DNA of 63,245 nt, counting the filler, from Folioceros fuciformis (taxonomy: Eukaryota): assembly GCA_049999805.1 (NCBI GenBank). It is 10 parts of 10 records of this genome, joined end to end, with 100 filler letters (N's around TTAATTAATTAA, not from the genome) between each part and the next. Parts side by side here need not be neighbours in the genome. Positions count along the whole stretch, not along the records: positions 33,290 to 37,664 come from JBNGIO010001012.1; 9 more parts are not named here. One strand, given 5' to 3'. Shown here one piece after another: positions 26,636 through 48,172 of this stretch. How positions within the stretch are numbered: position 1 is the stretch's first letter; every line of letters starts with the position of its first letter. Under the pieces are notes generated by a model. That model was not told the DNA's origin. It saw only the letters and a list, made by a program, of their open reading frames with translations, and did no database searches. Position numbers and translations under genes: made by a program.

Positions 26636-29600
26636 ACCACTACCCTCCAATCCAGACCCTAGTTCTGCACCATATCGTTGGTGATCGCAGACTGCCAATG
26701 GATCGTTCCCCACGCCAGCAGAAGTCTTCCAAAGAGCCCTATTGCCTCCCCTTATCCCTTCTAGCAACATAAACGTTTTCCCTTCCGGGAAGGTGATATC
26801 CAATGACATGCGTTTAACAACTTTGTGCAACGCCTTCCTTGCCTTGGCCACGGTGATTTGATCTTGTCGTTTATGTCATGATACCATATCTTCCGAGACA
26901 CGCGTCCTCTTCCCAACTACCACCTCCAAGCCCCTCTGCTCTCTTGTGGTCAAGACAGAAGTTGACACTGTTTTCCAGGCAGTGGGGATGTAAATCGGCT
27001 CTGCATCAGGCTCTACAGATCCGGCAGGGCCGGGGTCCCTACCAAGCCCTGGAGGCTGCTGGCCCGGAGTTGACAAGCTGTAAAGTGTTGGGCCCCCCCA
27101 CGTTGAGATGAGAGACTAAAGCCCATAAAACCCCTTGGAAGACACTCTACCCACTTCCTCCTCGGCAGCTTGAGGTGGAGTGCTAGATCCTGACCCCTGG
27201 TTTGAGCTCACAGGAGCCACACCCTCACAATTCATCTGAGGGGGCAATACCGTCAGCTCATCGAAAAATGCGCTGGAACCTGGGGTATACCCCGAAAGTG
27301 CGGTTAGTATTCCTTTAGAACCAGTAGCCAGGGGCGTCGTTGCCCATTCAGCTACCCGAGAAGTTTCGAACTGACCGCCCATCTCCACAGGAGCTTCCAT
27401 TTGCTCATGGGTAAAATCATCCAACGGCCGACCCACACTGGCTGCCCCAAGCCCGGGGGCAGACAACGCCTTTTTGCCAGCGGCAGGTGGGGAAGCTGCA
27501 AAGCTCACGATCCCATCCTGCGTGCCCTCTGCCTGGCAGAGACCATCGTTGGAGACCATCCGTTCTCCCGACTCCCTCTGGCCTACCCCACCATACTCTG
27601 TAGCGCGATCCACCCACTTCTCGCCATCTGCCCTAGCATCGGCGCCTACCTCAGGCCTAGCCAGAAACCTCTCGCTATGGGTGCTATTAGACAACAGATC
27701 GAATTTCTCCCAAGCCCAATGCTCGTCTAGGGGTGGGGAAGCTTCGTCCTGCATGTTTTTCATAGGGGGATCCAAAGTCACCTCCTGTCTTCGGGGTCCG
27801 TCGGTATGCTGGATCCCCAGCACGACGGCACCGCTCTTCATAGATACCTCAACCCCCCAGTTCATCGTAGAGGGAAGAGCAAGCGGCACCTCCTCCCACC
27901 TCAATTCCCCTGCCTCCGTAGGATTTCTATTGTCGCGTTCACGCGAGTTGTAGCTACCTAATGCCTTAGGGGAAAAAAGCAGATGGCGCACATGTGGAGC
28001 GCTCACCAAGTTGTTCCTCCCTGTCTCAGTGTTAGGATCCCACGCAGGAGGCTCCACCGACACTTCTTTCTCTTCCCCACCAAGCTGCAAGGATGAGAAG
28101 CCAGACCCCGCTATCAGGCTACCAGTTTGTAGATTCTTCCCGTCCTGAGCCAGGAGAACCTCCTGAGACGAAGGGCCTGACCTGCTCTCCTCACCCGGCC
28201 ATGCCCTACCGCCTCTTGCTTGAGCAACCCATCCCCTTGCTGTTGAAACAGATAAGCCCCCTTCAGGCTGCCTGCCCGTCACCTCAGGACCCGTCATTAA
28301 CATAGCTGCCGGATTCTCCACCTATCGATCCACGATCGCTTCCCGAGGAGTTGCCCCAAAGACTGTCTTCTGACAGGAGGCAGGCTCCAAAGCAGCCGGT
28401 CTCGTTGCACCATCTTGGGCAAACTCTACCTGAACATTCCCATCGCTGAGAATCGGCTGCGCTCCAGCCTCTCCCAGCTCAGACTGTCTACCTCCTGCCA
28501 CACCACTTGGTTGCCACCCTGAATCAGTTCTACCTTCGACAGCCACCTTGCTCAGCTGAGCAACTCCATGAGGCTTGTCCCACCCCTCCTCAACACCTTG
28601 GTGGTCCTGCCCGAGAGGAGACTATTGAGACCTCCCTGAGGGTTCCAAGCCCTTGATTCCTGCACCTAGCTGCTGGACTTGTGCAAGAGGAGACCCCGGC
28701 AGCTGGCAGCTACCTATGCCTGTCTTCAGCAATGCAGAGGGGATGCTCTTGAGCAGCCCTATAGGCCCGCGTCTTGGATCACACGTCGCCATCTCGCCTA
28801 CCAACCCAACACGCATGTTGTCTGCTGGTTTCTGCTGAGCAGCAGTGACACCCTGCCCTGAGCTAGCCCTTGTCACCAACCAGAGGTTGAGCTCAGCCTC
28901 GACACACGGCCTCGAGGAAAATCCATCCTGCTCTTGTTGAGCCAGGTTTTTCTGTGGACCCGAGGCCCGCTTGGCCTCGCCAAACTCCTTGAGCTGCACA
29001 CCTCTTCCATTGCCTGAGGTAGCTTCTCCCCCAACAGGATTATGGGGGCCTTCCTGTTCCAAGGCCGAGGCTTTAAGCCGATCCACGAGGTGTTCATCAC
29101 CTTCAGCCATAGAACCCCATTGCCCGTTACACCCACTGTTGCCCCCAAACCCAGGCACAGCCCTGTTTCTTCCACCCTCAGGCTTTTCTTTCGCAGAAGG
29201 AGAGTATGTAACACCACCAGGTGGCCCAGCCCCCAACACGCCAGTCACCACATCAGGGATGTGGTGAACCAAAGGTTGCCCAGGGGGGAGGACAACCTGT
29301 TTGGGGTCAGGTTCCCCCTGCTCCTCCCGAGACAGGGCATGCCCAAGTCCCTCTCGCTCGTCTCCCTGTTGAGAAGCAATCGGCTCCTGGCCTTCCTCAT
29401 TAAGAGTAGTATATCCACTTTTCGCCCCATCTCCAACTTTGGCGCTCGTCCTATCCTAATCTGAGAGCTCCCCTGGCCATTCTAAACTGCAGCTACCAAG
29501 CACTCTGGTCACGTCCTCACCGCAAGGAAAGTCACCCGGCTATAAGGTCCTTGAGGGCTGACGACTTTCTGTCTAGCTCCTTACACATTAAAGGATAACC

Positions 29601-32112
29601 TAGCTTCTTTCCCGACCGTTTCCTTTGTCGTCCACACTCTGCATGGATGTGAGGCACACCTTTGGAAGCGTCAACCAGGAGCCCATTAGTCACAGTACTT
29701 GAAGGGCGGTGCATCGAGATCAGAGCATAAGGGACATCCTTCTTTATGGGGTCGTTCTCCCGTTGTTCCCTTTGGTAAGGACTACTATCCCGACCCTCTT
29801 GCTTCTCACCCTATTGAGCGTACATCCATTCCTTGCCCTCCTCGTCCCCGCTACCATCCTTGGGCTTTTTCTTATCCAGGCTTGCACGCTCCTCTGTCAT
29901 CACCGAAAAACAGCAAGTCTGGTCATTAGACACCGCTTCCCGGCAAGGAGTGCTCTCAGCTCCCAGGTTGATGCTCATGGAAGGTGCCTTGTCCTGCAGG
30001 TTATCCAGCTGAGGTTCCCCTGGCTTCCTCCCCTTCCTTGGCCTTGCTTCTTTACTGACCTTCCGACTCGGAGCCTGAGTAGATCTCCCTGACTCTTCCA
30101 TCCCTTTGTCACCTACACCAGAACGCTGCTTTTGCCCAAACGGTGACCCGAGCTGCTGAACACTGCCTAAGACTGCCTTCGGCGGTGAGCTAAGCGTGAT
30201 TTTAAGCTCCCCTGTCGCCCCGCAGCCTGGACCACTAAGCCTCTGCCCTCATGTCAACCCATGGCCTAAGTCTTCTACGGGTCTTTGCTGAGAAAGGTAT
30301 TCGCCTTGCAACATCTTGGCTCCTACCGGCAACCTCAGTACGGGTGCAGTGTCAGGACTAGGCTCTGAGACAACCTTCGTCTGCTCCTACTTGTTTACCT
30401 CTCCTTGAGTACCCAAGTGGTGGAGGGTTCCATCTTCTCTAGTCTCAACGTCCATCGGCACAGCTCTGTCCACCTCCAAATCCTCCTTCCATCTCAGCTC
30501 CCACTCCCTTGGCAACTTGATCGTGATCGGCGAAGTGAGCAAACCTAAGAATCCGAGGTGAGCTTTGGCCACAACTCTGGTAGCAAGGGTGACCCTACCT
30601 TTGCCAAACTTAGCGTCTCTGACAAAAGCAAGCATCTTTGTCTCCCCCAGCCATTGTGCCTGGTTAGAGCTCGGGATCAGACACTCCTTTCCCAAGTCAA
30701 ATATCGTGTTGAAATACATAATCACCGAGGATCCTTCTAGCCGATGATAGACAACACTGAACCTAGCCTCCTTCGACAGCTTGTTGGCATACTCTACGTT
30801 GACACCCAAGCCCTCCTGCACCACGCTCCTGGCCCTCTTCCCCACTGTCTCCCACACCAAATCCAATCGGGCACCATCTGTGCCGCCTAGCTGAAGTGCC
30901 CGAGTGGGAAACGTGTGCATCTCCTCCCCTCTCGGCATCCAGTAGAAGAATGTGTTCTCCACCTTCTTCCGCAAGATAACCCAAGCCTTCACTTGGAGAA
31001 CAATAGTGCCAGCAAACCTCGGGAAGGCCATAACCTGAATTCGGCAGGCCCAGCGTTGCACTGCCAGGCTTGCCCTCCATGGCTTTTCTGGGCACCTTGA
31101 AACCCCAGTAGGGGTACAGATTGGGTCTGCTCAGAGTTGCCGTTTTTTCTTTCTGCTCTTGAGCAGAACAGGCACTCTTGCTTAATATGGTTAGAAAGAC
31201 CACAAATACCGCACTTGACAGGAAGCCCTAGGTAATCGAAAAGCTTGGTGTAGTTCTTTGACGACTCAACCGGATCTCGAACAACCACCCCAGCGGGCAA
31301 GAAAGTAAGGCTAACTATCCTCACACCGAAGCGGCCAGGCTTGCTTCTGTCGAAAAACGGGAGTCCACCTACGGGACCTCAACCACCCAGCCAATTGTTT
31401 CCAACATCTTGTCTATCAACGGGATGAGCTGCATCGGTAGGGTAGGCAACCTCACCTAGATAAAGTGCCTTTTGATATGAGATTGCATGATTGTGCTACC
31501 GGGAGACCACGCCTCGATCATCACCGGGGTTGTGCCTTTGAAGGGAAGCGTTGTCTACAAGAGAGCAAGAGCACCAGCTGCTTCATCGCACTTGACCTGA
31601 AAGGATCCATCTTCTGTCAAGAAGACATAGGCGGGAGGACACCCTATGACCTGAGTTACCCCTGCCTCAAAATCGCCCACAGAGGGCAGCCCACCTGTAG
31701 CGAGCCTCCCCACCACCAAGCTACCTACCCGACAGCCTGACCTCAAACTGTTGAAAAAAAACGCAAAACGCTCATCGGTAAGGAGGTCAGCCAAAGGACC
31801 AAGCTGTATGCTGGGCCCCTCAGTTGCTAGGGCCGATTTCGTCACTATACTTGTGCCCTCTGTTGTCCTTCCCCAAGTGGTGACCTTCCCGGGAGTCCGT
31901 ACTTGAGCCTCCCGCTTAGATACTGCTTTCTTGCGCCTAAGCACCTCCGTATTAGGTGCATGCGAACTTGTGTTAGGATTCCGCCCATTGTGCCCGTTTG
32001 TACCCATGTCGGCCATTTGTGCCCATGAGTGGACTGTCAAGCCCCCAGGTAGGGGGCTCGATGCATCCATCAGACCGTCACGCCTCAACCTCCCATCGCC
32101 CTGTTTCCGCAA
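26636..32112 (-). mobile_element. L1-type non-LTR retrotransposon ORF1 remnant (DUF4283-like + CCHC knuckle + long low-complexity tail)
   Basis: SLVVGRL...GSFQV...IEAWSP...(W/stop)VRLPTLP...FDYLGLPVKCGICGLSNHIKQEC is the plant L1 ORF1 signature. It is followed by collinear, intronless minus-strand ORF fragments down to the linker. Confidence 0.7.
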
Positions 32113-33289
32113 GAGTCACTAGCCTCTCCCCAACCCGGCTATTGTTGCCAATCAACTGAAGACTATTGTCACTGAGTTGCTCTTGGTAATGGGTCCATAC
32201 TCTACTATGTTCCCTTTTGATAAAATGGTGCAAGATTTTTTACTCAAGTCTATGGATGTGGATTTATCAAATGAGTCCCTACTACGTAAGTTTTATAAAG
32301 CGTGGGGTCCAACAAGGGAGAACGGGGGCCTGAAGAAGATGGTTTGTACAAACATATGTGATCGGGGAGAGGGAGCTATACTAAGATATTTATTGAATTT
32401 CAAGTTCAGCTTTCCTAATCTTCATTTCTTTTGCGACCTAAAGTTGTATCAATTCTTGCAGGTTGCCAGAGCTCATTTGTATGAGCTCTTAGGCTTACCA
32501 AAGCCAGGATTGGATGTCACGCAGAGAAGCTAGAGTCTTGGTTTGAAAATTTTCTTCCTATACGTGGTAAGTGAAACATCCATGAATTATTTTCATATAC
32601 TATATCTAATTATATAGTTCTGACTAAGTGCTTAAACTCTTGCAGTTGGAATATGCAATGGATGGAAAAATAATGGAAGCTCCTAAGATGCATGAGCATC
32701 TCTTGGGCATGAAGAAGGGAGATTTTTGAGGATGCTTGTTTGTAAGTATGTAATAGTTACAAAAACGCGGATCCTTACACTCTCTTCCTACTTATGGTTG
32801 TCTTTTCCTCATTTCGTGGTCTTATTTGCGGAGAAGATTGCTAGGTTTTATACTATGAGTGTTTCTTATTAGGCATTTGAGATGATGTACACTTTTATTC
32901 GTTTATGCATATAGATTTCTTTAATATTTTTCAAACATATTTTTGATATAATAATATGATATAAATAAATAATATTTTATTATATAATTAATTTTTATTT
33001 AATATTATATTTTTAATAATATAGTATATAATGACTGTATTTAAATTATTTATTTTATAGGAAATTTTATTGAATAAGAATAGACACTTCATTGAAATGT
33101 ATATAACTTCAATATTTCATCAATACAAATAATGTACTTTCATAAGGGACTACGTGTAGTCTCTTAAGCGTTTTTTAACCTAGATGTACNNNNNNNNNNN
33201 NNNNNNNNNNNNNNNNNNNNNNNNNNNNNNNNNTTAATTAATTAANNNNNNNNNNNNNNNNNNNNNNNNNNNNNNNNNNNNNNNNNNNN

Positions 33290-36200
33290 CGCGTATAAGC
33301 ATACCTCAGCTGGTCCCGATGCTGGGCCACAGCCAAATTATCCATAGCCATGGGAAGAATTCTTTGAAATACTTCTGCTCTGGCTTGAACCTGTGCCAAG
33401 CACACATTTGCATCTTTGCTCCAGTCAACAGGGATGGAGTAGGTGTCCTTCACCACATTCGGCAACACTGCGTTGCGTCCGAATAACAAAAAGTATGGAC
33501 TGAAACTTCCAAGAGCTGCCTGCACACTGACCCTGTACCCCAACACGATGTAAGGGAGCAATTCATCCCAACACTTGGGCTCCATAGTAATGCATTATTT
33601 CCTTAGTGCATCCTTGAAGGTCTGCACTAGCCTTTCTGCCAGGCCATCGGCCTGTGGATGATCCCTCGATGTCCTCCTGTGATCAATGAGACTCCTGTCG
33701 AGCAAGGTCTGGAATTCACCTCGAAACTCGTTACCCTGGTCTGTGAGCACTTCCGCGCAGCTCCCAAATCGGCTGAGCACACACTGCAGAAACGCTCTGC
33801 TAGTGTAGTGTGAAGTTCTCTGTGGCAAGAACGCTACTTCAACCCACTTAGAGAAATGCTCAATCATGACCATGCAATGTCGGTTACCTTGCTTTGTGAG
33901 GGGAAGCTCTGGCATAAGGTCAACCGACCATCTAAAGAATAGCCCCCTGATTGGTAGGGAGTGCAACACCACATCCTGGGTGTTAAATCGGGCTTTGACT
34001 GCATCACATGCAGCACACTTAGCAACCACCTTCTCGACATCTGCATACATCCCTGACCAGAAATACGTGCTTTTCAGCATGTGGTGTGTCCTCTTCACAC
34101 CAAAGTGGCCAAGGGTTTCGTGCACCTTGGTCACTATGCCCACTCTTTCCTCATGACTTGGTACTTTCCTCACGAGTTCTCCTTCTAACAGTAGCAGCTC
34201 ACCATTTTTCCATGAGTATCTGGCCACGCGCCTTCTGAGTTTAGCCAAGCCTGCTTCAGTCATTCCAGGCACTGTGCCTTCCTTCAGCAACTGTAGGGCT
34301 TGAGGATGTCTCCAAACATCCCTGACGGACTCTGTCAACACATGTCCTTCTTCATGCTCACCTGTCCTGGCCATGAGTGCCATGAAGCTGCTGGGTGCAC
34401 CATCTACGTGCCCCTCGTCCTGTCGAGCTCCTGTGACATCCTTGTCACTGTCCAACGGATTTCTGCTTAGCCCATCTGCATTGTGATGTACCTTGCCTGC
34501 CCTGTGCACGATCTCCATATCGTACTCAGATAGTAGCAGTGCCCATCTGGCTAGCTTACCACTTAACTTCATGTTGGTCATCAGCCAATGAAGTGGCTGG
34601 TGATCTGTGACCAGTTGAAAACGCCTTCCATACAGATAGACCCTGAAATGCAGAACTGCCCATACCGCAGCAAGACACTCTCCCTCATATGAGGAGTAGT
34701 TCACTTCAGCGGAGTTGTTAGATCGGCTTGCATAAGCTATCACTCGCTCAACACCATCTGCATCATGTTGTGACAACACTGCTCCAATCCCCGCAGTGCT
34801 CTAGTCTGTGTACAGAGTGAAAGGGTGATCAAAATTTGGCCTGGCCAACATAGGCTTTTCTGCCAACTGGTCCCGAAGATCTTGCCAAGCCAACTCCTGG
34901 TTTTGGTTCCATTTCCACACAATGTCTTTCTTCAACAGCTCATACAGAGGTTTACACGTGGAACTGAGATCCTTCATAAATCTCCTGTAATAGTTCACCA
35001 AACCCAGGAAGGCTCTAAGAGCGGCTACATCCTTTGGTCTAGGCATTTGCATCACGGCCTGCACCTTAGCCAGCTGAGGCATGATGCCTCCTGGTACTAT
35101 CTCATGCCCCAGATACTCGATCTGCTGGAAAGCAAACTTGCATTTCTTAGGATGAGCTTTCAAACCCGAGCTTGACAGCCTCTGTAGCAATATCTCTAGA
35201 TGCTCCATATGTTCTTCGATTGTCTCACTGAAGACCAGGATATCATCTATGTAGCAACGCACAAATGGCAGCCCCTGCAGCTCCAGATCTGCAATTCTTT
35301 GGAAATATATGGAAGCATTCTTCAGCCCAAACGGCATCGTCTCCCATTCCCAAAGCTGGTCCTTCCCCCAGAAGGCTGTCTTGCACTTGTCCTGCTCTTC
35401 AATCACAATTTGGTTGAAGCCTGAGCGGAAGTCCAAACTGGTAAAGAATTTTGCCTTACCTATGGCATCGAAAATCTCGTCTGGAGTAGGCATGGGGTAC
35501 CGTTCCATAGGAGTCACCTCGTTTAGAGGTCGGTAGTCGCCACACATCCTCCTGTCCTTCCATTCACCGTTCTCATCCTTTTTGAGCGGTAGGACAGTCA
35601 CAGCAGCATATTGAGAGCTTGATTTTCGTATCAACCCCGCTTCGAACAACTCTTGACAGCGTTTGTCAACAATCGCCCATTCTGCTGAACTGAGGCGGTG
35701 CCTCCTTCTGAAGACGGGCTCTTCATGAGTCGTCACTACTTTGAACTTGATCTTCTCATACCTGCCCAGCTCCTTCCAACTGAATGCAAAAGCACCCTTG
35801 TTTTTCTCAAGCATGTCGATGATTTTCTGCTTATCTTCCGGGCTCACATCTTCTGCAATGTGCCATACATGAACCTCTTTCGTCACACTCTTGGTGGACA
35901 GTTCAGTATCCACAGCGGCCATGCTGAATCTCTCCCGCAGCAGCTCGTCTTCCTCTGCCTTAGGAACCTCTTTATCCTGCAGTAGTTGGAGGAAAGGCCT
36001 TCGCTTCCCTTTGGCTTCTGCAAGTTGGAACGCCAAGCCTGTGCTTACCAGCCACCTTAGACTGTACAAGTCAAATGCCTGTCCGAGCATCCTGCACCTT
36101 GCAGATTTTGTGATGCCCATGGTCTGAGTGTCCTTCTTGGCAAAGCCCATCGCTTGCTCGCGTTCCTCAACATTGAGCTCTCCAAGCTCATTCCCTTTCA

Positions 36201-37664
36201 AATTCAGAATCACACCATCTCCTCCTGGTCTGAAGGCATAAGATTGCGGTGTGCTCACCAGAGTTGGCCATGCCCTTCTGGATTCCCCTACTCGATTCAC
36301 AGGGTAAAATGGCAACTTGTCCATCCTCTTCACCTGTTGTGAGCACCTTCCCAACTCTAGGATATCATCCACAACCTTCCGATTCGGAGTTGTCAAATTC
36401 CTGTGCTGTCTGAGCACCTCCAGTCCAGCCACATTTGTCCAGTAACTGCGAAGCCTGTGTGCATATGAGCCACACTGCACCGCGTCCATGATCAGCTCAT
36501 TGCCGAACCACGCCCGAATCTCTTCATACAGGGCCCTAACAGCTGGACGTTTGTCCATGGCTGCACACACATTCTCCAGAATGTACCAACATCGTGGATT
36601 CGCAATCTGGACTTCTCGCGTGATTCGTGCGAGCTCAGCAGCCAACGAAACGCCTTCACCGTTGCCTCTGCCTGCTGTCGAAAATGTCTTGCATTCCCAT
36701 CCCGCGATCAGCATATCCACTGGGCTTGACAAGGCTTGTAGCTGCCGCTTCCCAACCAGGTTCACGTCTGTGGGCAGCCTGCTCTGACAGCCTCGAACTG
36801 CTTCCTCGCTCAGTAGTGTTGGATACTGTTTGCAGAACCTGAGGATTCGACCCCTAGCGACAGCTCGAATCTTCTCATCCTTCTCCACGCAGGTATATTG
36901 CCGTATCTTGATGCCACACTGCAACACCGCTTCCAGGCCACTGCTGATTCCCGAGCAGAGCTCCAACAAATGGATGCCTTGAGCGCCCACCTTCCATCGT
37001 ACTAGAGCATCGTCGATGCGTCGATCTCCCGACTTGGCAGGCCCCATACCTGGGATCGACCTCTCAGGACATGTGTCTGTGAGATTCCACGGTCGATCCT
37101 CCTTCCTTCGCTGGTTCTCTCGAACCCTCGCTTGATCCAAATATTCTGAGCGCACCACCTTAAGCACACCCTTCTGCTCTCTTGGCTTTGGCATCTCCAG
37201 AGAGGATAACTCCTGCGTTTCCTCCCACATCTCATGTCGATGTTCACTCTGAGCACTGTGGGCAATCATGGTGCTGCATGTCATCCTCGTCCTGCTCTTG
37301 CCACCACTCCTATTCATCCTTAGAGGAATTCGTGCAACATGCGTGAAATCTCCTCTCCACCAGAATGGTCTGTAGAAAGCTTCAGCGTGCAAGGGATCAA
37401 CCCCCATGGCAGGACGGTGAGTTCCGTCCGACCCCAGCAAGACATCATATGTCTTCGCACTGGTGACCAAACATCTCACTTCAACGATGCTGGCATCCTT
37501 CGTGCCAGGCTTCAATTCAATCTTCACGGGCCTCCTCGTCATTCCCAGTACCTGTTCCTTGGTACCTGCAGAGGTGGTGATGTTCACGTCGCTCGGAACG
37601 AGCTTGTGTCCGTACAGCTTTAGTGCCTCCTGCACCCGTGCTCCCAGCAGTACCGGATCCGCTC
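33290..37664 (-). mobile_element. Ty3/Gypsy LTR retrotransposon pol with domain order PR-DNMT-RT-RNaseH-INT; truncated at both ends by linkers
   Basis: One reading frame broken only by in-frame stops at 34801-34803 and 33595-33597. Protease C-half (YDVLLGSD), RT (RMCGDYRPLN, LDFRSGFNQI, MPFGLKNA, YIDD, YLGH, FLGLVNYYRRF), RNase H (YTD*S, SYEGECLAAVWA, TDH), integrase (H..LGH...CAAC, SVDL, LTDQG, GLAER). RT-RH-INT order is Gypsy. Confidence 0.95.
36045..36975 (-). CDS. C5 cytosine DNA methyltransferase domain (DNMT3/DRM-like) embedded in the Gypsy pol
   Basis: Motifs in canonical order: I (LLELCSGISSG), II (CVEKD), III (TDV), IV (DMLIAGWECKTFS, Cys codon 36691-36693), VI (YILENV), VIII (AHRLRSYWTN), PTL, IX (LNVEEREQAMGF), X (RCRMLGQAF). 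No stops within the domain. Confidence 0.88.
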
Positions 37665-37969
37665 NNNNNNNNNNNNNNNNNNNNNNNNNNNNNNNNNNNN
37701 NNNNNNNNTTAATTAATTAANNNNNNNNNNNNNNNNNNNNNNNNNNNNNNNNNNNNNNNNNNNNCACACGTAGGTGTGGACGACGCAAACGCGGGCCAGC
37801 CAGGATCCCGATCGCGAGGCCGCCAGATTTCGATCAGAGGATTTAAGCCCGTCGAGTTAGCTTGTGGAAACCCAATTCGGAACGAGGTGTGAGTGTAACT
37901 ATCAACATCTACATTATATTCCGACCGTTTCTAACTAGCCTTTTGCTTGATTTGCATCGATTTTGAATC

Positions 37970-40900
37970 ATGACGTCCTTAGAAACCGTCATGTTCAATA
38001 TCGAGAAGTTAGATGGTACTAACTTCCCGTTCTAGAAAGAACAAGTGTATAATGTTCTAGAGCAGAAGAAGAAGATCAAGCCCATAAAGTTGCTAGGAGT
38101 GAAACCTGTTAGCATGACTTTGGATGAGTGGCAGGATCTAGATGAGCTTGCTAGGTCTACCATCATGCTAACATTTTCGAAGTTGGTCTACTTCAATGTG
38201 AAAGACAATACCACAAGTTATGAGCTATGGCAGAAGTTGTGTGACCTGTATGAAAAGCAAAGTGCGGCTTCTCAGGTGTACTAGTTGAAATAACTGGTGG
38301 ACTTGAAGATGAAGGAAGGGACGAAGATGTCCGATCATCTGAATGAGTTCAATACCATTTTCAGCCAGCTCTCATCTCAAGGTATCTCGTTCCAATATTC
38401 CGTGATAGCTATGTTTCTATAAGTCACATTACCAGAGAGTTGGGACACCTTTCGTACAGCTCTGAGTAATTCCACTCCTGCCAGTGGTCTCACTGTTGTA
38501 AATGTAGAAGGTAGCATGTTAACGTAGGAGGTGAACAGGAAGAATATGAAACCTCCGAAAGGTTCTAATGCCCTCATGGTGAGAGGAAGGTCCACTTCAG
38601 AGGGGAAGTACAATAAGCGAAGTCTTTCCTGTAGCAAATCTCGTAGTCGTAACAATATTGAGTGTTACCATTGTCACAAAAAGGGTCACATCAGAAGGGA
38701 CTGCGAGAAGTTCAAGAAGGACAAAGGAAAGGAGAAGAAGCAGAGCGATAACAAGGCAAGACAAAGTATCAAGCCTGCCGAGGTGGATTCTGTTGGTGAT
38801 GGAGATGTTCTTATCTCTTCTTCCTTCGATTTTGCGCAATTGATAGCCGTGGATAGTCACTATTCTCTAATTGGATAATTGACTCTGGAGCATCTTTCCA
38901 TGTTACTCCGCATAGGGACTGGTTTAACACCTATGATACTATTAGGAAAGGATGTGTTCGGCTTGGAAATAACTACGCATGCAAGTTGCAGGCGTTGGTG
39001 ATGTACAGCTGAAGTTCGACAACGGATCTTCATTCATACTGAAGGATGTTAGGTATGTTCTGAAGTTGACAAAAAGCATGATTAGCGCAAGGCAGTTGGA
39101 TGACGTTGGCTACTACTGTTGGTTTGGGGATAATTCTTGGAAGATCTCCAAAGGTTCTCTTGTGTTGGCTCGTGGATCGAAGTGTGACACTTTGTACTCA
39201 CTTTAGGTAACCACTGTCAAGGATCATGTGATTTGTGTAACGGAACAATCAAATGTTTCCTTGTGGCATTGTCGGGTAGGACATATGTCTCAAAAAGGAA
39301 TGAAGATCTTATCTCATTTTGGTTACGTCCTTGCTTTTGACTTTTCCGATTTCTCCGTGTGTGAGCACTATTTGTATGGGAAACAAATGAAGTCACATCA
39401 TGGAGCAAGAGGTAAACACAAAAGTAAACCTCTTGAATTGGTTCACAGTGACGTGTGTGGACCTATACCCACTGTATAATTAGGCGGTGCATCCTATTTT
39501 GTCACTTTCATAGATGATTTCTCATGCAATGTGTGGGTTTATACTTTGAGGAGAAAGGATGATGTTCTGACAGTGTTTCAAAAATTCGTCACCCTTGTGG
39601 AGAAATAGTCTGGCCTCTGACTCAAGTGTCTACGGACAGACAATGGGGGAGAGTACGTTTCGAAGGCTTTCCAGTCATTCTGTGATTCCAAGGGAACCAC
39701 AAGAGAATTGACTGTTTCGTATACTCCTCCCTAGAATGGTGTGGCTGAACGGATGAACAGAACCATCCAGTAGAGGATGTGTAGTTTGTTGGCAAACTGT
39801 GGATTGCCTAACAGATTTTGGGCAGAAGCAGTGGCTACTGTGGTGCATCTTATTAACAGATCTCCTAATAAGGCTGTGGATGAGCAGGTTCCAGAGGAGA
39901 TGCGGTCTGGAAAGAAGCCGTTATATATTCATCGACGAGTGTTTGGCTACGAGGCATACTACCATGTTCCAAAGGAGTTTCGGGATAAGTTGGCTCCCAA
40001 GTCAAGGAAATGTATTTTCCTTGGCTATGGTGAATCTGGTGAGATGGGATACTGTCTATGGGATCCAGAAGCCAAGAAGGTTGTTCGCAGCAATAACGTG
40101 TTCTTCAATGAGACCAAGATGCACAAGAAGCCTATTCCAACTGTGGAGGTGCGACGGGTGGTCTTCTAAGAAGTGTTAGTGTCTGACAAGGACAAGTGGG
40201 AGAAGGCGATGGATTTGCTCCATAAGAACCAAACTTGGGAGTTGGTTCGGTTGCTTAGGGGCAAGAAGACATTGCCATGCACATGGGTGTATAAGATGAA
40301 GGACATACCCCATTATGGCAAACCCAAGTACAAGGCACGATTGGTTGCTAAGGTTTTAAGCAACAACAAGGTATTGACTTTGATGAGATTTTCTCACCAG
40401 TTGTCAAAATGACCACTTTGCAATGTGTTCTTGCTCTGGTTGTGAGGAACGACATGGAACTTGTCCAGATGGATGTGAAGTCGGTATTTCTGCATGGTGA
40501 TCTCCAAGAAGAGGTATACATGCAGCAACCAGAGGGTTTCATTGAGAAGAGCAAAGAGAATCTGGTGTGCAGGTTAAAGAAAAGCCTTTATGGTTTGAAA
40601 CAGCGCCTAGGGAGTGGTATTACAAGTTCCACTCATTTATGCTTTCTCAAGGCTACAAATGTAGCAATGAGGATCATTGCCTCTATACGAAGCAAGCTAA
40701 GGATGGAAAGTTCATTTTGGTCCTGTATGTGGATGATATGCTAATTGCTGGGACTAGCAGTGATGAGATTTCAGCGTTGAAGTCAAAGTTGAATGCTCAC
40801 TTTGACATGATAGACTTGGGAGAGGCAAGCGATATTCTTGGCATGCGTATTCGTCGAGACAGACATAAGCATTTGCTTTACTTGTCTTAGACTGAATACA

Positions 40901-42036
40901 TTAACGGGGTGCTCCAACGTTTCAGTATGGAGAAGGGGAAGGTATTGAGTACTCCGTTGCCTCCATACGTGAAACTTTCGAGCAAAGATTGCCCAAGCTC
41001 TGCGGAGAACAAAGGTGAAATGGAGAAGGTTCTATACTCATCAGCTGTAGGGAGTTTGACATATGCAATGAATGCTACATGTCCTGACATTGCTTTTGCA
41101 GTGGGAGTGGTAAGCAGGTTTATGTCAAACCCTGGTAGGAAGCATTGGGAGGCAGTGAAAGGAGTTATGAGGTACTTAAATGGTACAAAAGCTTTGTGCT
41201 TATGTTTTGGTAGTGAAGATGCATGTGTCATGGGATATACTGATGTTGATTATGCAGGGGATATGGACAAAAGGAGGTCCACATCAGGTTATGTCTTCAT
41301 GTGCACTAGAGGGGCAGTCTCATGGCGATCTCGTTTGCAATCGTGCATAACACTATCTACCACCGAGGCCGAGTATGTTGCAGCGACTGAGGCGTGTAAG
41401 GAAGCCATGTGGCTTGCTCGTTTAGTGGGAGATTTGGGGATCAAGGTTGAGCTGCCAGTGTTGCATTGTGATAACCAGAGTGCTATCCAATTGGCGAAGA
41501 ATCTAGTATTTCATGCGAAGACCAAACATGTGGAAGTGAAGTATCACTTCATTCGAGAGGTGTTGGAAGACAAGAAGGTACAGCTTGTCAAAGTTCACAC
41601 CAGTCAAAACCCTGCAGATGTTCTTACCAAGGGGCTCTCTACGGAGCAATTCGCACAAGCTCGGACACTCATGGGCATGAGGTAGACCACTCTCCTATAA
41701 AGGTAAATTGGCCTTTAAGTGGGAGGTTGGTATTAGAGCCCATTAAAGCCCAATGTGCTTAGACTAATGTGTTTAGTCTAAGATTAGTGTCTAGTTAAGT
41801 ATCATTAGTTTAGATTAGCTTAAGTTAATCTGTAGAAAGCTTCTTACGCAGCTTTCCGTACGCTTCTTGTGAAGCTTCCTTGGGAGCTCTTCTAGAGGGT
41901 ATAAATACCCCATTGAGCTCGCTTGCTATAGAGACATAGAGAGACTCTGTGTGAGAGTGTGACCTCTCTTTCTCCTCTCCTCCTTCACCATGTGGCTCCT
42001 CTAGCGATCCTCTAGCGACCCTCTAGGACGACAACA
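37970..42036 (+). mobile_element. Ty1/Copia LTR retrotransposon, near full length and degenerate (family A, copy 2)
   Basis: Gag from ATG 37970 (FNIEKLDGTNFPF*K), CCHC knuckle, DSGAS, integrase, RT (YVDDML), RNase H (YTDVDYAGD, STTEAEY, CDNQSAI, TKHVEVKYHFIRE) ending 41685. PPT AAGTGGGAGG at 41717-41726. 3' LTR about 41728-42036. Many TGG>TAG and CAR>TAR stops. Confidence 0.96.
41728..42036 (+). repeat. 3' LTR of Copia family A
   Basis: Follows the PPT, starts TG, ends about ...ACAACA, and has TATAAATA at about 41899. Homologous to 8419-8514 and 48173-48445, both on the minus strand. Confidence 0.85.
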
Positions 42037-42642
42037 TTAGCAGGAGAGGCGGCATCAACAACTCTACGGGTAGGTCATCAACAACTTTATTGGTAGGTAG
42101 ACCCTTAAGCGGCATCCTCCGGACTATATTTTAGATGCTATTGGTAGTCATTCAAGGGGCTAGCCCCTAATATCCCAAATATGATTATCTCCATTTTTAA
42201 AGGTAGATGAGATTTTTTACTTTTTTCTAAAATAAATAAAAACTTAAACACTATATTTAAAAAACTATGTAAGATTATTCTCTCAAAAATATAAAATTTT
42301 CTTGAAAAGGTTTTAAATATAAATATACTATATACAAATAAAAATATTTATATATTTTTAGAAAAACAATATAAAAAATTAGCCCTCAAGAAAAAAAAAA
42401 GAAAAAAAAGGTGGGTAGACGTGGAAGATGCAAGTGAAGTGTTTAAGTAGTTCGGTTTAGCCTTTTTTGTGATCTAAGCTAGAAATCTTCTATAATACCT
42501 TCTTTGAAATTTTTTTTACTAAATTATATATATAACTATTTATTACTAGATTATAGTTCTAAGTATATTCACGCTTCATACTTTTAGATATTTTGGTGCT
42601 GATTCCCTTCAAACAGCATGCACGTTTGAACATAATAGTCGT

Positions 42643-44582
42643 CTATCGATACTGGGGTGCGACCTCCCCATCTGGCTTCACAATGTAGTCCTTTCCAAGG
42701 AAGTCCTGCCCAGTGAACCAGCGGTGCAATATGTCCTTGGCCCCAGCAGCGAAACGAGCCTGTATCACACAACCACCCCGATTGAATTGAGCACGCCCTT
42801 GCAGCGGGAAGGAAAATTAGTCAAGTACAGAAGGGAAAAGATGCACGCCTGTCCGTCCAGTGAGGAGCCGGAGATGTGAGGCGTGAGCGCCAGACGGTCG
42901 TATCCTTTGAAGAGACGCCACGCGTGATCATTCGGAGGAGGCTGCTGCGACCACACATCCCCACTGTAGCCTGCAAGATGCCCTGACTTGATCAATTCGA
43001 CCACGGCGTCAGCGTCCACGAGCGCTCCTCGGGCGTTGTTCACGACCACGGCTCCTTTTTTCAGCTTGCTAAGCTTCTCCTTGTTAAACAGTCCTCTACA
43101 ACAGCGTGGATCCGTGAGCATCCAGAACCCTCTGTGCCCTAGGCCCAAGACAAATGCTGGGGTTTCTCTTCAAAGCCAGCAGCGGCAGAGTCTATGCTTA
43201 CCTGGTCTGCACTGTTAGAGGAACATTGAGCAACAGCACGTCCGACTTTGCAAGAAGGGTGTCGAGATCGGTCTCACGAACTGCTCCCGTGAGCTCCTCC
43301 TTCTCCTTGTCCCACGCGTTGCGGTCGTAGTAGATGAGGTTGGCATTGAAAGGCTGGAAAATGAGTCAATCGATGCTATTCGGTGTCTGTTAGGCAATCC
43401 GCACGCACGGCAGGTGGAGATTTGCAAGCATGGCGATATCGCTGGAATACACTCACCTTGAGACGCTTGAAAAGCTCGAAGCCTATTCTTCCAGCTCCAA
43501 CCGTGCTTATGGTCTTCCCTTCCACGTCGTGGGCCCGGTGCACAGCAGCCGCGACATTCCACTCACCGCGCGTGATTTGCTGCCAAGCTGGCAGGAAATT
43601 GCGGACCAAGAGAAGGATGCGCAGCAGCTCGTCCTCCGCTACAGACACCACATTGCTCCCTGCCCGATCCAGGTGCCAGGTACAGTCGGATGAGCTGAAA
43701 TGGCTGGGACTGACAGTCCACAAAGTCACAACGGACCAAGTTCGAACCTGTAACTTCCGCTACAACGATTCCCGCGTCGGTAGCAGCTTTGATGTCCACA
43801 TGATCGGATCCCACCCCAGCCGTGAGCAGCAGCTTGAGCTTTTTCGCCTTCGTGATGCGCTCCGCCGTGATGTAGGCTGGGTGAAAGGGAGTGGTGATGA
43901 TGACATCTGCATCCCCCAAATGCTTCTCCAGTTCTGTACGTAATTGAGGCGGGATGGGATCAAGCATGTGTCACACCAAACACACTACCAATCAGGTCGC
44001 GTTGCCAATCCTATCTAAATCTGCCAAGAAGAGCAAGATATCGCTAATTCCTCAAGATAGAAAATGTCCATGACCGGAGTTCTCGCCGTCCTTGTCGTGA
44101 GTGAGAATGTACTGGTGCCCCAGCCCGTGAAGCCACTCCTTCAAGTCCAGCCCGCGCTCAACGTTGCCTACAAACTTAGGATCGGCGTGCGCCAGGTCGT
44201 GAGCCTGGTAGAAGACTCCCACGATCTTCAGGCCCTGTCACAACTCCCCCAGGCCCCTTGGTTCCACATCCAGAATGCCAAATCCAGAAACTCTAACTAA
44301 CCCCGGGCCACATGCATGCAGAGGAGTCGGACGCACATGCTTAGCTTGGCTCGCGTACGAGCTCTGCTCCCGGCAAAGCAATTTGCTGAACGCGGTCTCC
44401 TGAAACGCCTGCGAGCCAACGACGGATGGAGAGAGATCGGGAGCAAGACGGAGTCCGTTCAGAAGGTGCGGCACCCGCGGAGCAGCGTTGGTCACACGAG
44501 AGGAAAAGCTCTGGACATGGCCGGCGCCTCGGCACCGGTGTCCCAGGAGCGCCCGAACAGCCTGTTTCGCTGCACTTGCCAT
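42643..44582 (-). CDS. FDH: NAD-dependent formate dehydrogenase, organellar precursor (7 exons)
   Basis: [85 protein letters not shown]-terminal presequence-like exon at 44337-44582. Stop at 42643-42645. Last intron (42760-42848) is GC-AG. Confidence 0.95.
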
Positions 44583-48158: not shown

Positions 48159-48170
48159 GCTCTGATACTA
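48159..48170 (-). promoter_or_regulatory. Primer-binding site (tRNA-iMet type), one mismatch
   Basis: Minus strand TAGTATCAGAGC versus canonical TGGTATCAGAGC, immediately after the LTR. Confidence 0.8.
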
Positions 48171-48172
48171 GT

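What the first reader, a model, noticed from the sequence alone, without database searches (positions are those of the whole stretch)
33290..37664. Gypsy retrotransposon encoding its own C5 cytosine DNA methyltransferase between protease and reverse transcriptase
Seen: the 944-aa minus-strand ORF runs without stop or intron from the protease C-half (YDVLLGSD), through a ~310-aa domain with C5-MTase motifs in canonical order (LELCSGISSG, VEKD, GWEC, ENV, HRLRSYW, EREQAMGF, LGQAF), into a Gypsy RT. RNase H and integrase follow in the same frame. All of it lies within one segment, so it is not a linker artefact. Known: ordinary Gypsy pol has nothing between PR and RT. DNMT-bearing retrotransposons have been reported in dinoflagellates and charophyte algae (de Mendoza et al. 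2018), so the concept is not new but it is rare. Inference: the MTase would be cleaved from the polyprotein and packaged with RT and IN. It could methylate the element's cDNA or new insertion (mimicry of host methylation, self-silencing or protection) or alter the host epigenome. If the host is a land plant or an unreported algal lineage, this extends the known range.
Basis: partly seen in the sequence, partly recalled or inferred. Interest (0 to 1): 0.92.

Follow-up and report, generated by a model that had tools for sequence, protein, structure and literature searches.

The report
Gypsy retrotransposon carrying a DNMT3-like methyltransferase
This is a broken-off, recently disabled copy of a plant "jumping gene" that carries its own DNA-methylating enzyme domain, a rare kind of element already described in a green alga and here found in what looks like a land plant.

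Summary
The finding's interval is one whole 4375-bp contig; the window is ten contigs joined by N linkers. Its minus strand reads protease C-half, a ~350-aa C5-methyltransferase domain, then RT, RNase H and integrase, all in one frame. The methyltransferase is real and DNMT3-like: Pfam PF00145 passes only just, but the AlphaFold model (pLDDT 86.7) matches DNMT3A/3B best (Foldseek E 6e-16; VIA Z 27.6). It is a member of the known Gypsy-DNMT3 kind (KnitGypsy-Dnmt3 of Klebsormidium nitens, de Mendoza 2018). Its DNMT falls in one clade with the K. nitens, Closterium and Marchantia polymorpha elements, all with the PR-DNMT-RT order. A larger sister clade, including a chlorophyte, has the DNMT between RNase H and integrase. 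This copy is dead, with two in-frame stops, but public runs of the same organism read sense codons at both places. The family is multi-copy and the DNMT region sits at full family depth. In-frame derivatives that lack RT and RNase H but keep DNMT and integrase predominate. A host gene on another contig (LepA) is most like land-plant sequences. No paper in the searched library reports this kind from a land plant. Catalytic activity and biological role remain untested. Verdict: new member of a known kind, moderately interesting.

The parts
33290..37664 (-). Whole contig. It is an internal fragment of a Ty3/Gypsy element (PR C-half, DNMT, RT, RNase H, IN), cut at both ends by the contig ends.
   Evidence: N-linker map; translation; Pfam
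37318..37662 (-). C-terminal half of the aspartic protease (residues 1-115, includes YDVLLGSD). The active-site half lies beyond the contig end.
   Evidence: blastp gives 32-40% identity to the PR region of relatives P0005, P0149, P0246 and P0391; those regions carry Pfam aspartyl-protease hits in P0004, P0006 and P0008.
35947..36999 (-). DNMT3-like C5 cytosine methyltransferase domain (residues 222-572), motifs I, IV, VI, VIII, IX, X in canonical order
   Evidence: PF00145 at 22.4 bits vs cut-off 22. PDB phmmer best hit DNMT3A at 4.4e-5. AF2 pLDDT 86.7, pTM 0.87. Foldseek DNMT3A E 6.3e-16, TMt 0.79. VIA DNMT3B Z 27.6. Motif table.
36688..36702 (-). Motif IV 'GWECK': the catalytic Cys is kept, but Glu stands where DNMTs normally have the Pro of the Pro-Cys pair
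   Evidence: Cys is present in 108 of 108 typed family sequences. At the Pro position, 64 of 108 have Glu and 34 of 108 have Pro.
35098..35562 (-). Reverse transcriptase (RVT_1, residues 701-855, YIDD box at 35236-35253)
   Evidence: E 2.4e-28
34801..34803 (-). In-frame TAG inside the RNase H motif 'YTD*S'; private to this copy
   Evidence: In run X1, all 4 contigs covering the place (depth 103.7 of 103.7) carry another letter that makes a sense codon.
34522..34911 (-). RNase H domain (RT_RNaseH / RT_RNaseH_2), interrupted by the TAG
   Evidence: 1.5e-32; 1.6e-18; 3.7e-5
33658..34155 (-). Integrase: H2C2 zinc-binding domain (33991-34155) and rve catalytic core (33658-33933)
   Evidence: 1.6e-16; 2.8e-11
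33595..33597 (-). Second in-frame stop (TAA) in the integrase C-terminal part; private to this copy
   Evidence: All 5 contigs of X1 (depth 496.2 of 496.2) and both contigs of X5 (12.2 of 12.2) carry another letter that makes a sense codon.
34355..35827 (-). Stretch missing from the commonest deletion derivative: 1473 bp, in frame, residues 612-1103, i.e. RT plus RNase H. The breakpoints share 4 bases (AGCA).
   Evidence: Joint 34354->35828 seen in X1 (depth 149), X3 (one 1669-nt contig) and X5. Frame. No GT..AG ends.
34540..35673 (-). Stretch missing from a second deletion derivative: 1134 bp, in frame, residues 664-1041
   Evidence: Joint 34539->35674 seen in X1 (depth 65.6) and X5

Best explanation
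Identity, shown and held at about 0.9. The contig is an internal fragment of a young but dead copy of a multi-copy Ty3/Gypsy retrotransposon. Its pol polyprotein carries a DNMT3-like C5 cytosine methyltransferase domain between protease and reverse transcriptase. It belongs to the same lineage as KnitGypsy-Dnmt3 of Klebsormidium nitens and unreported look-alikes in Closterium and Marchantia polymorpha; I call this order 'type A' (PR-DNMT-RT-RH-IN). The host is most likely a land plant. The domain keeps the catalytic Cys of motif IV, the Glu-Asn of motif VI, the Arg-x-Arg of motif VIII and motifs I, IX and X. Like most of its family it has Glu-Cys instead of Pro-Cys. Mechanism, inferred and held at about 0.4. 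The domain is made as part of Gag-Pol and ends up in the virus-like particle or pre-integration complex with RT and IN. There it acts as an active SAM-dependent C5-MTase on the element's own newly made cDNA or fresh insertion. The new copy would then enter the genome already carrying host-like (probably CG) methylation rather than as naked foreign DNA. After insertion, copies are methylated and decay like other plant TEs: the private changes of this copy are mostly C-to-T type at CG and CHG sites. Internal deletions by template switching at short repeats produce RT-less derivatives that keep DNMT and IN in frame. These depend on full-length copies for reverse transcription.
For: The domain is DNMT3-like. 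PDB phmmer returns DNMT3A/3B/3C first, at 4e-5. The AF2 model has pLDDT 86.7. The top listed Foldseek rows are all DNMT3 entries, E down to 6.3e-16. VIA-align against 48,161 chains gives DNMT3B Z 27.6 and DNMT3A Z 26.3, against M.MpeI 24.0, M.HhaI 21.4 and DNMT1 18.9. Motifs run in the non-permuted order, so this is not DRM. Catalytic residues are kept across the family: motif IV Cys in 108 of 108, ENV Glu in 108 of 108, first Arg of motif VIII in 106 of 108. Family membership rests on a DNMT tree of 142 sequences. All 19 type-A sequences plus 8 of unknown order form one clade (support 1.0), apart from 89 type-B plus 26 unknown. K. nitens GAQ93235.1 lies in the type-A clade. Its neighbour gene KFL_013780010, on the same 7497-nt contig, supplies the RT (44-47% identity). 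The RT tree of 174 sequences gives the same A/B split. The nearest RT relatives (55-58% identity) carry the DNMT upstream of RT with 'GWECQG'. The contig is neither chimeric nor a one-off. Organism-A runs from 3 studies hold it (shares 0.89, 0.55, 0.24). X3 and X5 contigs bridge PR to DNMT. X1 depth over the DNMT region is 374-702, like the PR and IN regions at 442-607. The copy is young and dead. Both stops read as sense codons in X1 and X5. At 12 places all or nearly all X1 depth differs from the window; 9 are of the C-to-T/G-to-A type, and 8 of those 9 are at CG or CHG. Only 36% of the contig's cytosines are in those contexts (binomial P 0.0017). For the host, an intronless LepA/GUF1 ORF at 55053-57221 is 83-85% identical to liverwort, moss, lycophyte and fern proteins and 80-82% to angiosperm proteins, and every species named among the best 120 hits is a land plant. 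The self-methylation mechanism is the one proposed in de Mendoza 2018, where SymbioDIRS-Dnmt3 domains methylated CG de novo in yeast (sections 10 and 11 read).
Against: Pfam PF00145 passes by only 0.4 bits and covers only residues 299-372. This copy departs from its own family at motif I (Cys where 82 of 108 have Phe, though 21 of 108 also have Cys). It also departs right after the catalytic Cys (Lys where 93 of 108 have Gln; Thr where type A has Gly in 18 of 19). The Pro of the Pro-Cys pair is replaced by Glu; what that does to catalysis is unknown. The only published test of the K. nitens domain found no methylation in yeast (inconclusive). The DNMT evolves faster than the rest of pol: 33-41% identity, against RT 42-58%, RH 52-68% and IN 33-61% for type-A relatives. 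Among the few within-host variants listed in the DNMT, 3 are synonymous and 4 are not (from a truncated table). That gives no sign of purifying selection inside this host. Self-methylation should silence the element, so the benefit is unclear. No LTRs, gag or full-length copy could be seen. The host assignment rests on a different contig of the window. Placement inside the type-A clade is poorly resolved (supports 0.64-0.9, long branches).
Confidence: 0.8

Rival explanations
1. The DNMT-like domain is no longer a methyltransferase. It is kept as a DNA- or chromatin-binding module, for example to tether the pre-integration complex to methylated or heterochromatic DNA, much as chromodomains guide chromoviruses, or as a structural spacer in pol.
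For: Glu replaces the Pro of the Pro-Cys pair in 64 of 108 family sequences. This copy also has unusual residues in motif I and after the Cys. The K. nitens domain produced no methylation in yeast. In the sister type-B elements the domain sits next to integrase, and PHD fingers follow the integrase. That is the place where targeting modules usually sit. PHD-bearing proteins also occur in the type-A RT clade.
Against: The chemistry-specific residues are kept almost without exception over a very deep divergence. The catalytic Cys is in 108 of 108, the ENV Glu in 108 of 108, Asn in 103 of 108, and the motif VIII arginines in 106 of 108 each. A mere binding module would not need them. The yeast result was inconclusive, because human DNMT3B also failed there.
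Confidence: 0.25
2. The contig does not belong to the land plant that owns the other contigs. It comes from an alga (charophyte or chlorophyte) living on or with it, so there is no range extension from this window.
For: The contig is short (4.4 kb) and holds no host gene. The described carrier (K. nitens) and many relatives are algae or come from metagenomes. In the DNMT tree the window sits near the K. nitens subclade. No whole genome is held to test linkage.
Against: Runs labelled with the same organism from 3 different studies hold it at 99% or more. Its depth in X1 is high and repeat-like. G+C (0.51) and CpG observed/expected (0.54) lie within the range of the other nine contigs (0.37-0.53 and 0.42-0.68). 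Its closest named RT relatives are liverwort proteins (Calypogeia fissa 48-51%, Marchantia 51%), above Closterium (42-46%) and K. nitens (44%). Independently of this window, the same architecture lies on chromosome-sized Marchantia polymorpha contigs.
Confidence: 0.1
3. Assembly chimera or one-off event: a host DNMT3 gene fragment was joined to, or inserted into, a single Gypsy copy.
For: Only one copy lies in the window; tblastn of the polyprotein against the other nine contigs finds nothing.
Against: There is one continuous frame across both junctions. Independent contigs from other runs span PR to DNMT and DNMT to the downstream part. The DNMT region is at full family depth. Relatives in at least four other named species have the same order.
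Confidence: 0.03

Closest known systems
KnitGypsy-Dnmt3 of Klebsormidium nitens (de Mendoza et al. 2018, PMC5890265)
   Same: Both have a DNMT3-like, non-rearranged DNMT domain inside the Pol ORF of a Gypsy-type element. The K. nitens protein GAQ93235.1 is homologous (32.5% over 335 aa) and lies in the same DNMT clade. On a close ENA relative (P0296), PR sits upstream of the DNMT, and the RT follows on the neighbouring K. nitens gene of the same contig. Both are multi-copy and intronless.
   Different: The host differs: here probably a land plant, not a charophyte alga. The sequences are only about 33% (DNMT) and 44-47% (RT) identical. The paper's figure legend says the K. nitens repeats are arranged as in DIRS elements; the ends cannot be seen here. 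Ka/Ks below 0.2 was shown for K. nitens copies; I could not measure it here.
Type-B relatives: Gypsy elements with the DNMT between RNase H and integrase, often with a PHD finger after the integrase (e.g. 'pol' KAF8056149.1 of Scenedesmus sp. PABB004; many metagenome proteins)
   Same: The DNMT subfamily is homologous (33-37% identity). The catalytic residues are the same, including the frequent Glu-Cys. The RT lineage is sister.
   Different: The domain sits at another place in pol. They form a separate clade in both the DNMT and RT trees. One named carrier is a chlorophyte. I found no description of this arrangement in the searched library.
SymbioDIRS-Dnmt3 and SymbioLINE-DNMT of Symbiodinium (de Mendoza et al. 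2018)
   Same: These are retrotransposons that carry a C5-MTase in their coding region. SymbioDIRS-Dnmt3 is also DNMT3-like and methylated CG de novo in yeast.
   Different: They belong to different retrotransposon classes (DIRS, LINE) and a different host kingdom, and the paper treats them as independent acquisitions.
Cellular DNMT3A/3B (animals), plant DNMT3 and DRM
   Same: They are the best fold and sequence match. DNMT3B gives Z 27.6, rmsd 2.7 A over 270 residues, with 20-24% identity. The motif order is the same as in DNMT3.
   Different: No PWWP/ADD or other companion domains lie in the frame. The domain is embedded in a retroelement polyprotein. It has Glu-Cys instead of Pro-Cys. It is not permuted as DRM is.

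Membership tests
Ty3/Gypsy (Metaviridae) LTR retrotransposon | pol domain order PR - RT - RNase H - IN (integrase after RT) | tested here: met
   RVT_1 at 701-855, then RT_RNaseH, Integrase_H2C2 and rve in the same frame. The PR C-half lies upstream.
Ty3/Gypsy (Metaviridae) LTR retrotransposon | RT groups with Gypsy RTs | tested here: met
   398 proteins at E<=1e-20. The listed ones carry RVT_1, RT_RNaseH, Integrase_H2C2 and rve. See also the RT tree.
Ty3/Gypsy (Metaviridae) LTR retrotransposon | Long terminal repeats, PBS/PPT, target-site duplication, gag | not testable with these tools
   The contig ends inside PR and inside IN, and no genome is held.
C5 cytosine DNA methyltransferase (PF00145) | Profile match above the curated cut-off | tested here: met
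   22.4 bits against a cut-off of 22, which is marginal. Of the 26 proteins found, 21 match PF00145 at E<=0.001, at 19-46 bits.
C5 cytosine DNA methyltransferase (PF00145) | Motifs I, IV, VI, VIII, IX, X with catalytic Cys (IV) and Glu (VI) | tested here: met
   Cys323 and Glu363 are present, and both are invariant in 108 of 108 typed family sequences.
C5 cytosine DNA methyltransferase (PF00145) | Pro-Cys dipeptide in motif IV | tested here: not met
   Glu-Cys stands here and in 64 of 108 family members; 34 of 108 have Pro-Cys. Human DNMT3A has Pro-Cys in the alignment.
C5 cytosine DNA methyltransferase (PF00145) | SAM-dependent transfer of methyl to C5 of cytosine in DNA | not testable with these tools
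   This needs an enzyme assay. The K. nitens relative gave no signal in yeast, which the authors called inconclusive.
DNMT3 subfamily | Catalytic-domain fold and sequence closest to DNMT3, in non-permuted motif order | tested here: met
   DNMT3A/3B rank first by phmmer, Foldseek and VIA. Motif order.
DNMT3 subfamily | Placement inside the DNMT3 clade in a tree with DNMT1/2/5, DRM and bacterial enzymes | not tested
   No cellular DNMT sequences could be obtained as ids. de Mendoza 2018 places the K. nitens elements as a divergent Dnmt3-related clade.
Gypsy-DNMT3 (KnitGypsy-Dnmt3 kind) | DNMT3-like domain inside the Pol ORF of a Gypsy-type element | tested here: met
Gypsy-DNMT3 (KnitGypsy-Dnmt3 kind) | DNMT and RT homologous to those of the K. 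nitens element | tested here: met
   DNMT is 32.5% identical over 335 aa to GAQ93235.1 and lies in the same clade. RT is 44-47% identical to KFL_013780010 and lies in the same RT clade.
Gypsy-DNMT3 (KnitGypsy-Dnmt3 kind) | Multi-copy family that keeps the DNMT; purifying selection on it (Ka/Ks < 0.2 in K. nitens) | tested here: inconclusive
   Multi-copy status and DNMT at full family depth are met. Selection could not be measured: no other copy sequences were obtainable, and the listed variants are 3 synonymous to 4 non-synonymous.

The most novel reading that the evidence does not exclude
Gypsy-DNMT3 is not a Klebsormidium oddity. It would be an ancient green-lineage retroelement lineage, from chlorophytes through charophytes to land plants. 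It has a TE-specific Glu-Cys catalytic variant and two fixed positions of the DNMT in pol, and it is still recently active in a land plant. In that plant the predominant copies, and the only form seen in a run that may be RNA, are in-frame derivatives that have lost RT and RNase H but keep PR-DNMT-IN. This would mean the methyltransferase is selected for in its own right. It could be supplied in trans to methylate sister copies or host DNA, or it could be on the way to host co-option.
Probability: 0.15. Interest if true: 0.75.

Novelty: new member of a known kind. Interest (0 to 1): 0.48.

Why it matters
Retrotransposons that carry the very enzyme class hosts use to silence them are a paradox, and their function is still unknown. 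The one streptophyte example studied (K. nitens) gave no activity in yeast. This work places the kind in land plants: this host, plus unreported copies on Marchantia polymorpha chromosomes and close RT relatives in Calypogeia. Recent activity means natural uninterrupted domains should exist. Together these move the question to organisms with good genetics and methylome tools. The family-wide Glu-for-Pro change next to the catalytic Cys is a concrete, testable biochemical feature. So is the existence of two insertion positions that track both the DNMT and the RT trees. The DNMT-keeping, RT-less derivatives offer a natural experiment on whether the DNMT is useful apart from autonomous replication.

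Tried and rejected
- Own genome: none is held, so copy counts, LTRs and linkage to host genes could not be obtained.
- tblastn of the read-through polyprotein (X at the stops) against the other nine contigs found only itself.
- Earlier findings of the scan: nothing, by place or by sequence.
- Rfam scan of the whole window: 0 matches, so no help for host identity.
- Expression: no RNA holder is listed. X3 is only guessed to be RNA, so I make no claim about transcription.
- Intron reading of the two deletion joints: rejected. On the coding strand the skipped stretches do not begin with GT or end with AG. The breakpoints share 4 bases (AGCA) or a 6-base near-repeat (ATGGGC), and the joints also stand in DNA runs.
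- Selection inside the host: counts from the truncated variant table are 3 synonymous to 4 non-synonymous in the DNMT and 11 to 8 in the integrase. That is too few and too incomplete (106 rows not shown), so no conclusion.
- CpG observed/expected does not set the element apart from the other contigs (0.54 against 0.42-0.68).
- ESM Atlas only repeated 'PF00145, Streptophyta'.
- Homodimer prediction of the DNMT domain: no verdict, after queue refusals.
- Host to genus: not achieved. In a quick midpoint-rooted LepA tree the host pairs with an unnamed Logan protein (89.7%) next to ferns and a lycophyte, outside liverworts, mosses and seed plants. I do not trust this beyond 'land plant, not close to any named species in the collection'.
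- Rooting the DNMT tree with cellular DNMT3, DRM or bacterial enzymes: not possible, as no such sequences were obtainable as ids. Whether types A and B stem from one capture or two therefore stays open.
- Literature: searches (listings) and passages show no report of a Gypsy-DNMT3 in a land plant. A 2026 preprint says only 'streptophytes (Gypsy-DNMT3)'. The library lacks most subscription journals, and I saw no supplements. Supplementary Fig. 13 and the data tables of PMC5890265 and the supplementary trees of PMC12344493 may bear on this.

Full report
WHAT IS THERE

The window is not one molecule. It is ten contigs joined by linkers of 44 N, TTAATTAATTAA and 44 N. The finding's interval, 33290..37664, is one whole contig of 4375 bp.

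On the minus strand, in the frame that starts at 37662, 953 codons are open down to a TAG at 34801-34803. The same frame then continues through 401 codons to a TAA at 33595-33597, and on to the contig end.

Pfam places these domains in the frame:
- RVT_1 at residues 701-855 (E 2.4e-28).
- RT_RNaseH across the first stop (1.5e-32).
- Integrase_H2C2 (1.6e-16) and rve (2.8e-11).
- PF00145 DNA_methylase at residues 299-372, with 22.4 bits against a cut-off of 22.

The protease is represented only by its C-terminal half. Gag, the rest of the protease, the integrase C-terminus and any terminal repeats lie beyond the contig ends.

IS THE METHYLTRANSFERASE REAL?

Yes, although the Pfam score alone is marginal.
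- phmmer against all PDB sequences returns 28 sequences at E<=1. The best are DNMT3A (4.4e-5), then DNMT3B and DNMT3C, with plant DRM entries lower down.
- An AlphaFold2 model of residues 225-570, made with a 21-row alignment, has mean pLDDT 86.7 and pTM 0.87.
- Foldseek against the PDB lists only DNMT3 entries at the top, the best being DNMT3A at E 6.3e-16 and TM 0.79 on the target.
- VIA-align against 48,161 representative chains does not depend on Foldseek. It gives DNMT3B Z 27.6 (rmsd 2.7 A, 270 residues) and DNMT3A Z 26.3. Behind them come M.MpeI 24.0, M.HhaI 21.4, Dnmt2 20.8, DNMT1 18.9 and ZMET2 18.3.
- The motif order is not permuted, so it is DNMT3-like and not DRM-like.

THE FAMILY

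A word-indexed search with the DNMT part found 26 proteins, the best at 43% identity. They include several from Marchantia polymorpha (Mp_8g17980, MARPO_0008s0049, MARPO_0084s0073), several from Closterium strains, and a weak hit in Sphagnum fallax.

An exhaustive phmmer run over 1.84 billion cluster representatives found 959 proteins at E<=1e-3, 480 at E<=1e-10 and 140 at E<=1e-30. In sequence space, then, the kind is not rare.

I located the window's five pol domains on the 172 family proteins in hand (26 plus 146 new). The results:
- 95 show the DNMT after RNase H and/or before integrase; I call this type B.
- 28 show it after the protease and/or before RT, as in the window; this is type A.
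- 49 show only the DNMT.

A FastTree of 142 DNMT domains puts all 19 type-A sequences (the window included) and 8 of unknown order into one clade with support 1.0. The 89 type-B and 26 unknown sequences lie apart from it. An RT tree of 174 sequences gives the same split. Type B forms a clade of 82 (support 0.918). All type-A tips fall in another clade of 65, and a third clade of 27 holds the DNMT-less relatives. The position of the DNMT in pol, the DNMT tree and the RT tree therefore agree.

Names could be recovered for only a few clusters:
- GAQ93235.1 (KFL_013780020, Klebsormidium nitens) lies in the type-A clade. Its neighbour on the same 7497-nt contig, KFL_013780010, supplies an RT that is 44-47% identical to the window's. 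This is the published KnitGypsy-Dnmt3 kind.
- Closterium sp. NIES-68 is type A.
- A 'pol' of the chlorophyte Scenedesmus sp. PABB004 is type B.

The window's nearest RT relatives are 48-58% identical. They are unnamed metagenome proteins that carry the DNMT upstream of RT with 'GWECQG', and proteins of the leafy liverwort Calypogeia fissa whose upstream part is not in the gene model.

CATALYTIC RESIDUES

The counts below cover the 108 sequences with an assigned type.
- The motif IV Cys is present in 108 of 108.
- The Glu of ENV is present in 108 of 108, and the Asn in 103 of 108.
- The two arginines of motif VIII are present in 106 of 108 each.
- Motifs IX (E-R-E...G) and X (G..D) are nearly invariant.

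The residue before the catalytic Cys is unusual. It is Glu in 64 of 108 and Pro in 34 of 108, with both residues found in both clades. Human DNMT3A has Pro-Cys. The window has Glu-Cys like most of its family.

Its own departures are:
- Cys for the Phe of motif I (21 of 108 share this).
- Lys for Gln after the Cys (3 of 108, counting the window itself).
- Thr for the next Gly, where it is the only one among the 19 type-A sequences.

The DNMT is less conserved than the rest of pol. Against type-A relatives it is 33-41% identical, compared with RT 42-58%, RNase H 52-68% and integrase 33-61%. The chemistry-specific residues are nevertheless kept. That argues for an enzyme rather than a mere binding module.

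THIS COPY AND ITS SISTERS IN THE HOST

Ten runs were listed for the contig. Three runs labelled organism A hold half or more of its sampled words, and organism-A holders come from three studies (shares 0.89 and 0.87; 0.55; 0.24). I laid Logan contigs of four runs on the contig.

In X1, 114 contigs match at all levels of likeness: 27 at 99% or more, 15 at 95-99%, 33 at 90-95% and 39 below. So it is a repeat family of mixed age.

At both stop codons of the window, every contig that covers the place carries another letter, which makes a sense codon. For the first stop that is 4 of 4 contigs in X1, depth 103.7 of 103.7. For the second it is 5 of 5 in X1, depth 496.2 of 496.2, and 2 of 2 in X5. The stops are therefore private to the assembled copy, or they are errors of it.

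Among the rows shown, all or nearly all X1 depth differs from the window at 12 places, about 0.3% of the contig. Nine of these are of the C-to-T/G-to-A type in the direction of the window. Eight of those nine lie at CG or CHG sites, while only 36% of the contig's cytosines are in such contexts (binomial P 0.0017). That is what deamination of plant-type symmetric methylation would leave. It rests on nine events and on a table from which 106 rows were withheld.

K-mer depth in X1 is uneven:
- 442-607 over the integrase part.
- 344-702 over 35772-37664, which covers the DNMT and protease; the DNMT bins themselves are 374-702.
- Only 67-100 over the RT bins from 34750 to 35625.

Two joints explain much of the drop.
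- 34354->35828 skips 1473 bp. It is seen in X1 (depth 149), in X5, and in X3 as a 1669-nt contig.
- 34539->35674 skips 1134 bp. It is seen in X1 (depth 65.6) and in X5.

Both are multiples of three. Both remove RT plus RNase H (residues 612-1103 and 664-1041) and leave PR-DNMT fused in frame to the integrase. The breakpoints share 4 bases or a 6-base near-repeat and have no splice-site ends. They are therefore deletions, as template switching would make, not introns.

Depths of Logan contigs are sums and not copy numbers. I say only that the RT-bearing form carries roughly a fifth of the family's depth, and that the DNMT is kept by the bulk of the family. In X3 only the deleted form is seen, but X3 is merely guessed to be RNA, so I draw nothing on expression from it.

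HOST

No genome is held and run labels are coded. On another contig of the window an intronless 723-codon ORF (55053-57221) is a complete LepA/GUF1. All named species among its best 120 relatives are land plants. Over 629 trimmed columns it is:
- 83-85% identical to Marchantia, Riccia, Calypogeia, Sphagnum, Diphasiastrum, Selaginella and Ceratopteris.
- 80-82% identical to angiosperms.
- 89.7% identical to one unnamed Logan protein.

The host is thus most likely a land plant that is not close to any named species in the collection. A quick tree puts it near ferns and a lycophyte, but I do not rely on that.

The element contig resembles the other contigs in G+C and CpG depletion. Its closest named RT relatives are liverwort proteins. 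The possibility that it comes from an associated alga remains, at about 0.1. Independently of this window, the type-A architecture lies on chromosome-sized contigs of Marchantia polymorpha. So the kind is present in land plants in any case.

HOW IT PROBABLY WORKS

Shown: a Gypsy pol with an embedded DNMT3-like domain that keeps the catalytic residues; membership in a deep, multi-species lineage; and recent amplification in this host.

Inferred: the domain is translated as part of Gag-Pol and enters the particle or pre-integration complex with RT and integrase. There it methylates the element's own cDNA or fresh insertion. This is the idea put forward by de Mendoza et al. 2018, who showed de novo CG methylation in yeast for the DIRS-borne Dnmt3 of Symbiodinium but found none for the K. 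nitens domain. They called that result inconclusive, because human DNMT3B also failed (sections 10 and 11 read).

I put about 0.4 on an active enzyme acting on the element's own DNA. I put about 0.25 on a non-catalytic tethering or targeting role. The remainder goes to other roles, such as RNA methylation, action on host DNA, or a brake on transposition.

COMPARISON AND NOVELTY

This is a new member of a known kind (Gypsy-DNMT3). Relative to what I could read, the following are new:
- A probable land-plant host with recently active copies, together with unreported copies in Marchantia and relatives in Calypogeia.
- The split of the wider family into two pol architectures that track both the DNMT and RT trees, with a chlorophyte carrier of type B.
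- The family-wide Glu-Cys variant of motif IV.
- The predominance of in-frame, RT-less, DNMT-keeping derivatives.

For the literature, I read passages, the outline and sections 10-11 of PMC5890265. I read passages only of PMC12344493, of bioRxiv 10.64898/2026.05.21.726589 and of PMC6453930. All else I saw only as search listings. None reports a land-plant Gypsy-DNMT3. The 2026 preprint speaks only of 'streptophytes (Gypsy-DNMT3)', and the 2025 paper cites the 2018 work for streptophytes. I saw no supplements, and the library lacks most subscription journals, so 'not in print' is only as good as those searches.

VERDICT

The element is real, belongs to a published kind and extends its range. 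Its function remains open. Interest is moderate.

Noticed in passing
window 1..63245 (linkers at 5742-5841, 15349-15448, 22771-22870, 26536-26635, 33190-33289, 37665-37764, 47927-48026, 52059-52158, 59762-59861): The window is ten separate contigs joined by 44N + TTAATTAATTAA + 44N. Features on different contigs are not physically linked.
   Followed up: yes
window 55053..57221 (+): A complete LepA/GUF1 (chloroplast-type translation factor) sits in a single 723-codon ORF without introns, flanked by AT-richer DNA. Land-plant orthologues normally have many introns (recalled), so this may be a retrocopy or a sign of an intron-poor genome. I used it only to place the host.
   Followed up: partly
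window 34355..35827 and 34540..35673 (-): Two independent in-frame internal deletions remove RT and RNase H but keep PR-DNMT-IN. Together with other joints they account for most of the family's depth in run X1. Only the first is seen in run X3, which may be RNA.
   Followed up: partly
window 33585, 34455, 34540, 34802, 34837, 35600, 36012, 36108, 36204: The private changes of this copy against the bulk of the family are C-to-T type, and 8 of 9 are at CG or CHG sites (P 0.0017). This is a deamination footprint of symmetric methylation.
   Followed up: yes
related proteins P0007, P0009, P0010, P0013, P0016, P0196 and others: A larger sister group of Gypsy elements carries the homologous DNMT between RNase H and integrase, often with a PHD finger after the integrase. 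One named carrier is the chlorophyte Scenedesmus sp. PABB004. I found no description of this arrangement in the searched papers.
   Followed up: partly
motif IV, window 36688..36702 and family alignment: Glu replaces the Pro of the catalytic Pro-Cys pair in 64 of 108 family members, scattered over both clades. The biochemical meaning is unknown.
   Followed up: partly
related proteins P0002, P0003, P0005, P0378, P0391 (Marchantia polymorpha): At least five annotated M. polymorpha gene models are pieces of type-A Gypsy-DNMT3 elements. Some have internal losses; for example, P0005 lacks the motif IV stretch. UniRef names one of them a DNA (cytosine-5) methyltransferase, so such models could be miscounted as host DNMTs.
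   Followed up: partly
window 6236..8403 (-) and 38528..41685 (+): There are Ty1/Copia elements on two other contigs. For the first, RVT_2, rve, Pol_BBD and gag_pre-integrs come from Pfam. I judged the second only from its ORF translations.
   Followed up: partly
run X4 (organism B, same study as X1): A second organism label holds a few 99%-identical pieces at very low depth (2-4) and many high-depth pieces that match only in part (43 of 53 laid). This could be a related repeat family or carry-over between samples; I did not resolve it.
   Followed up: no
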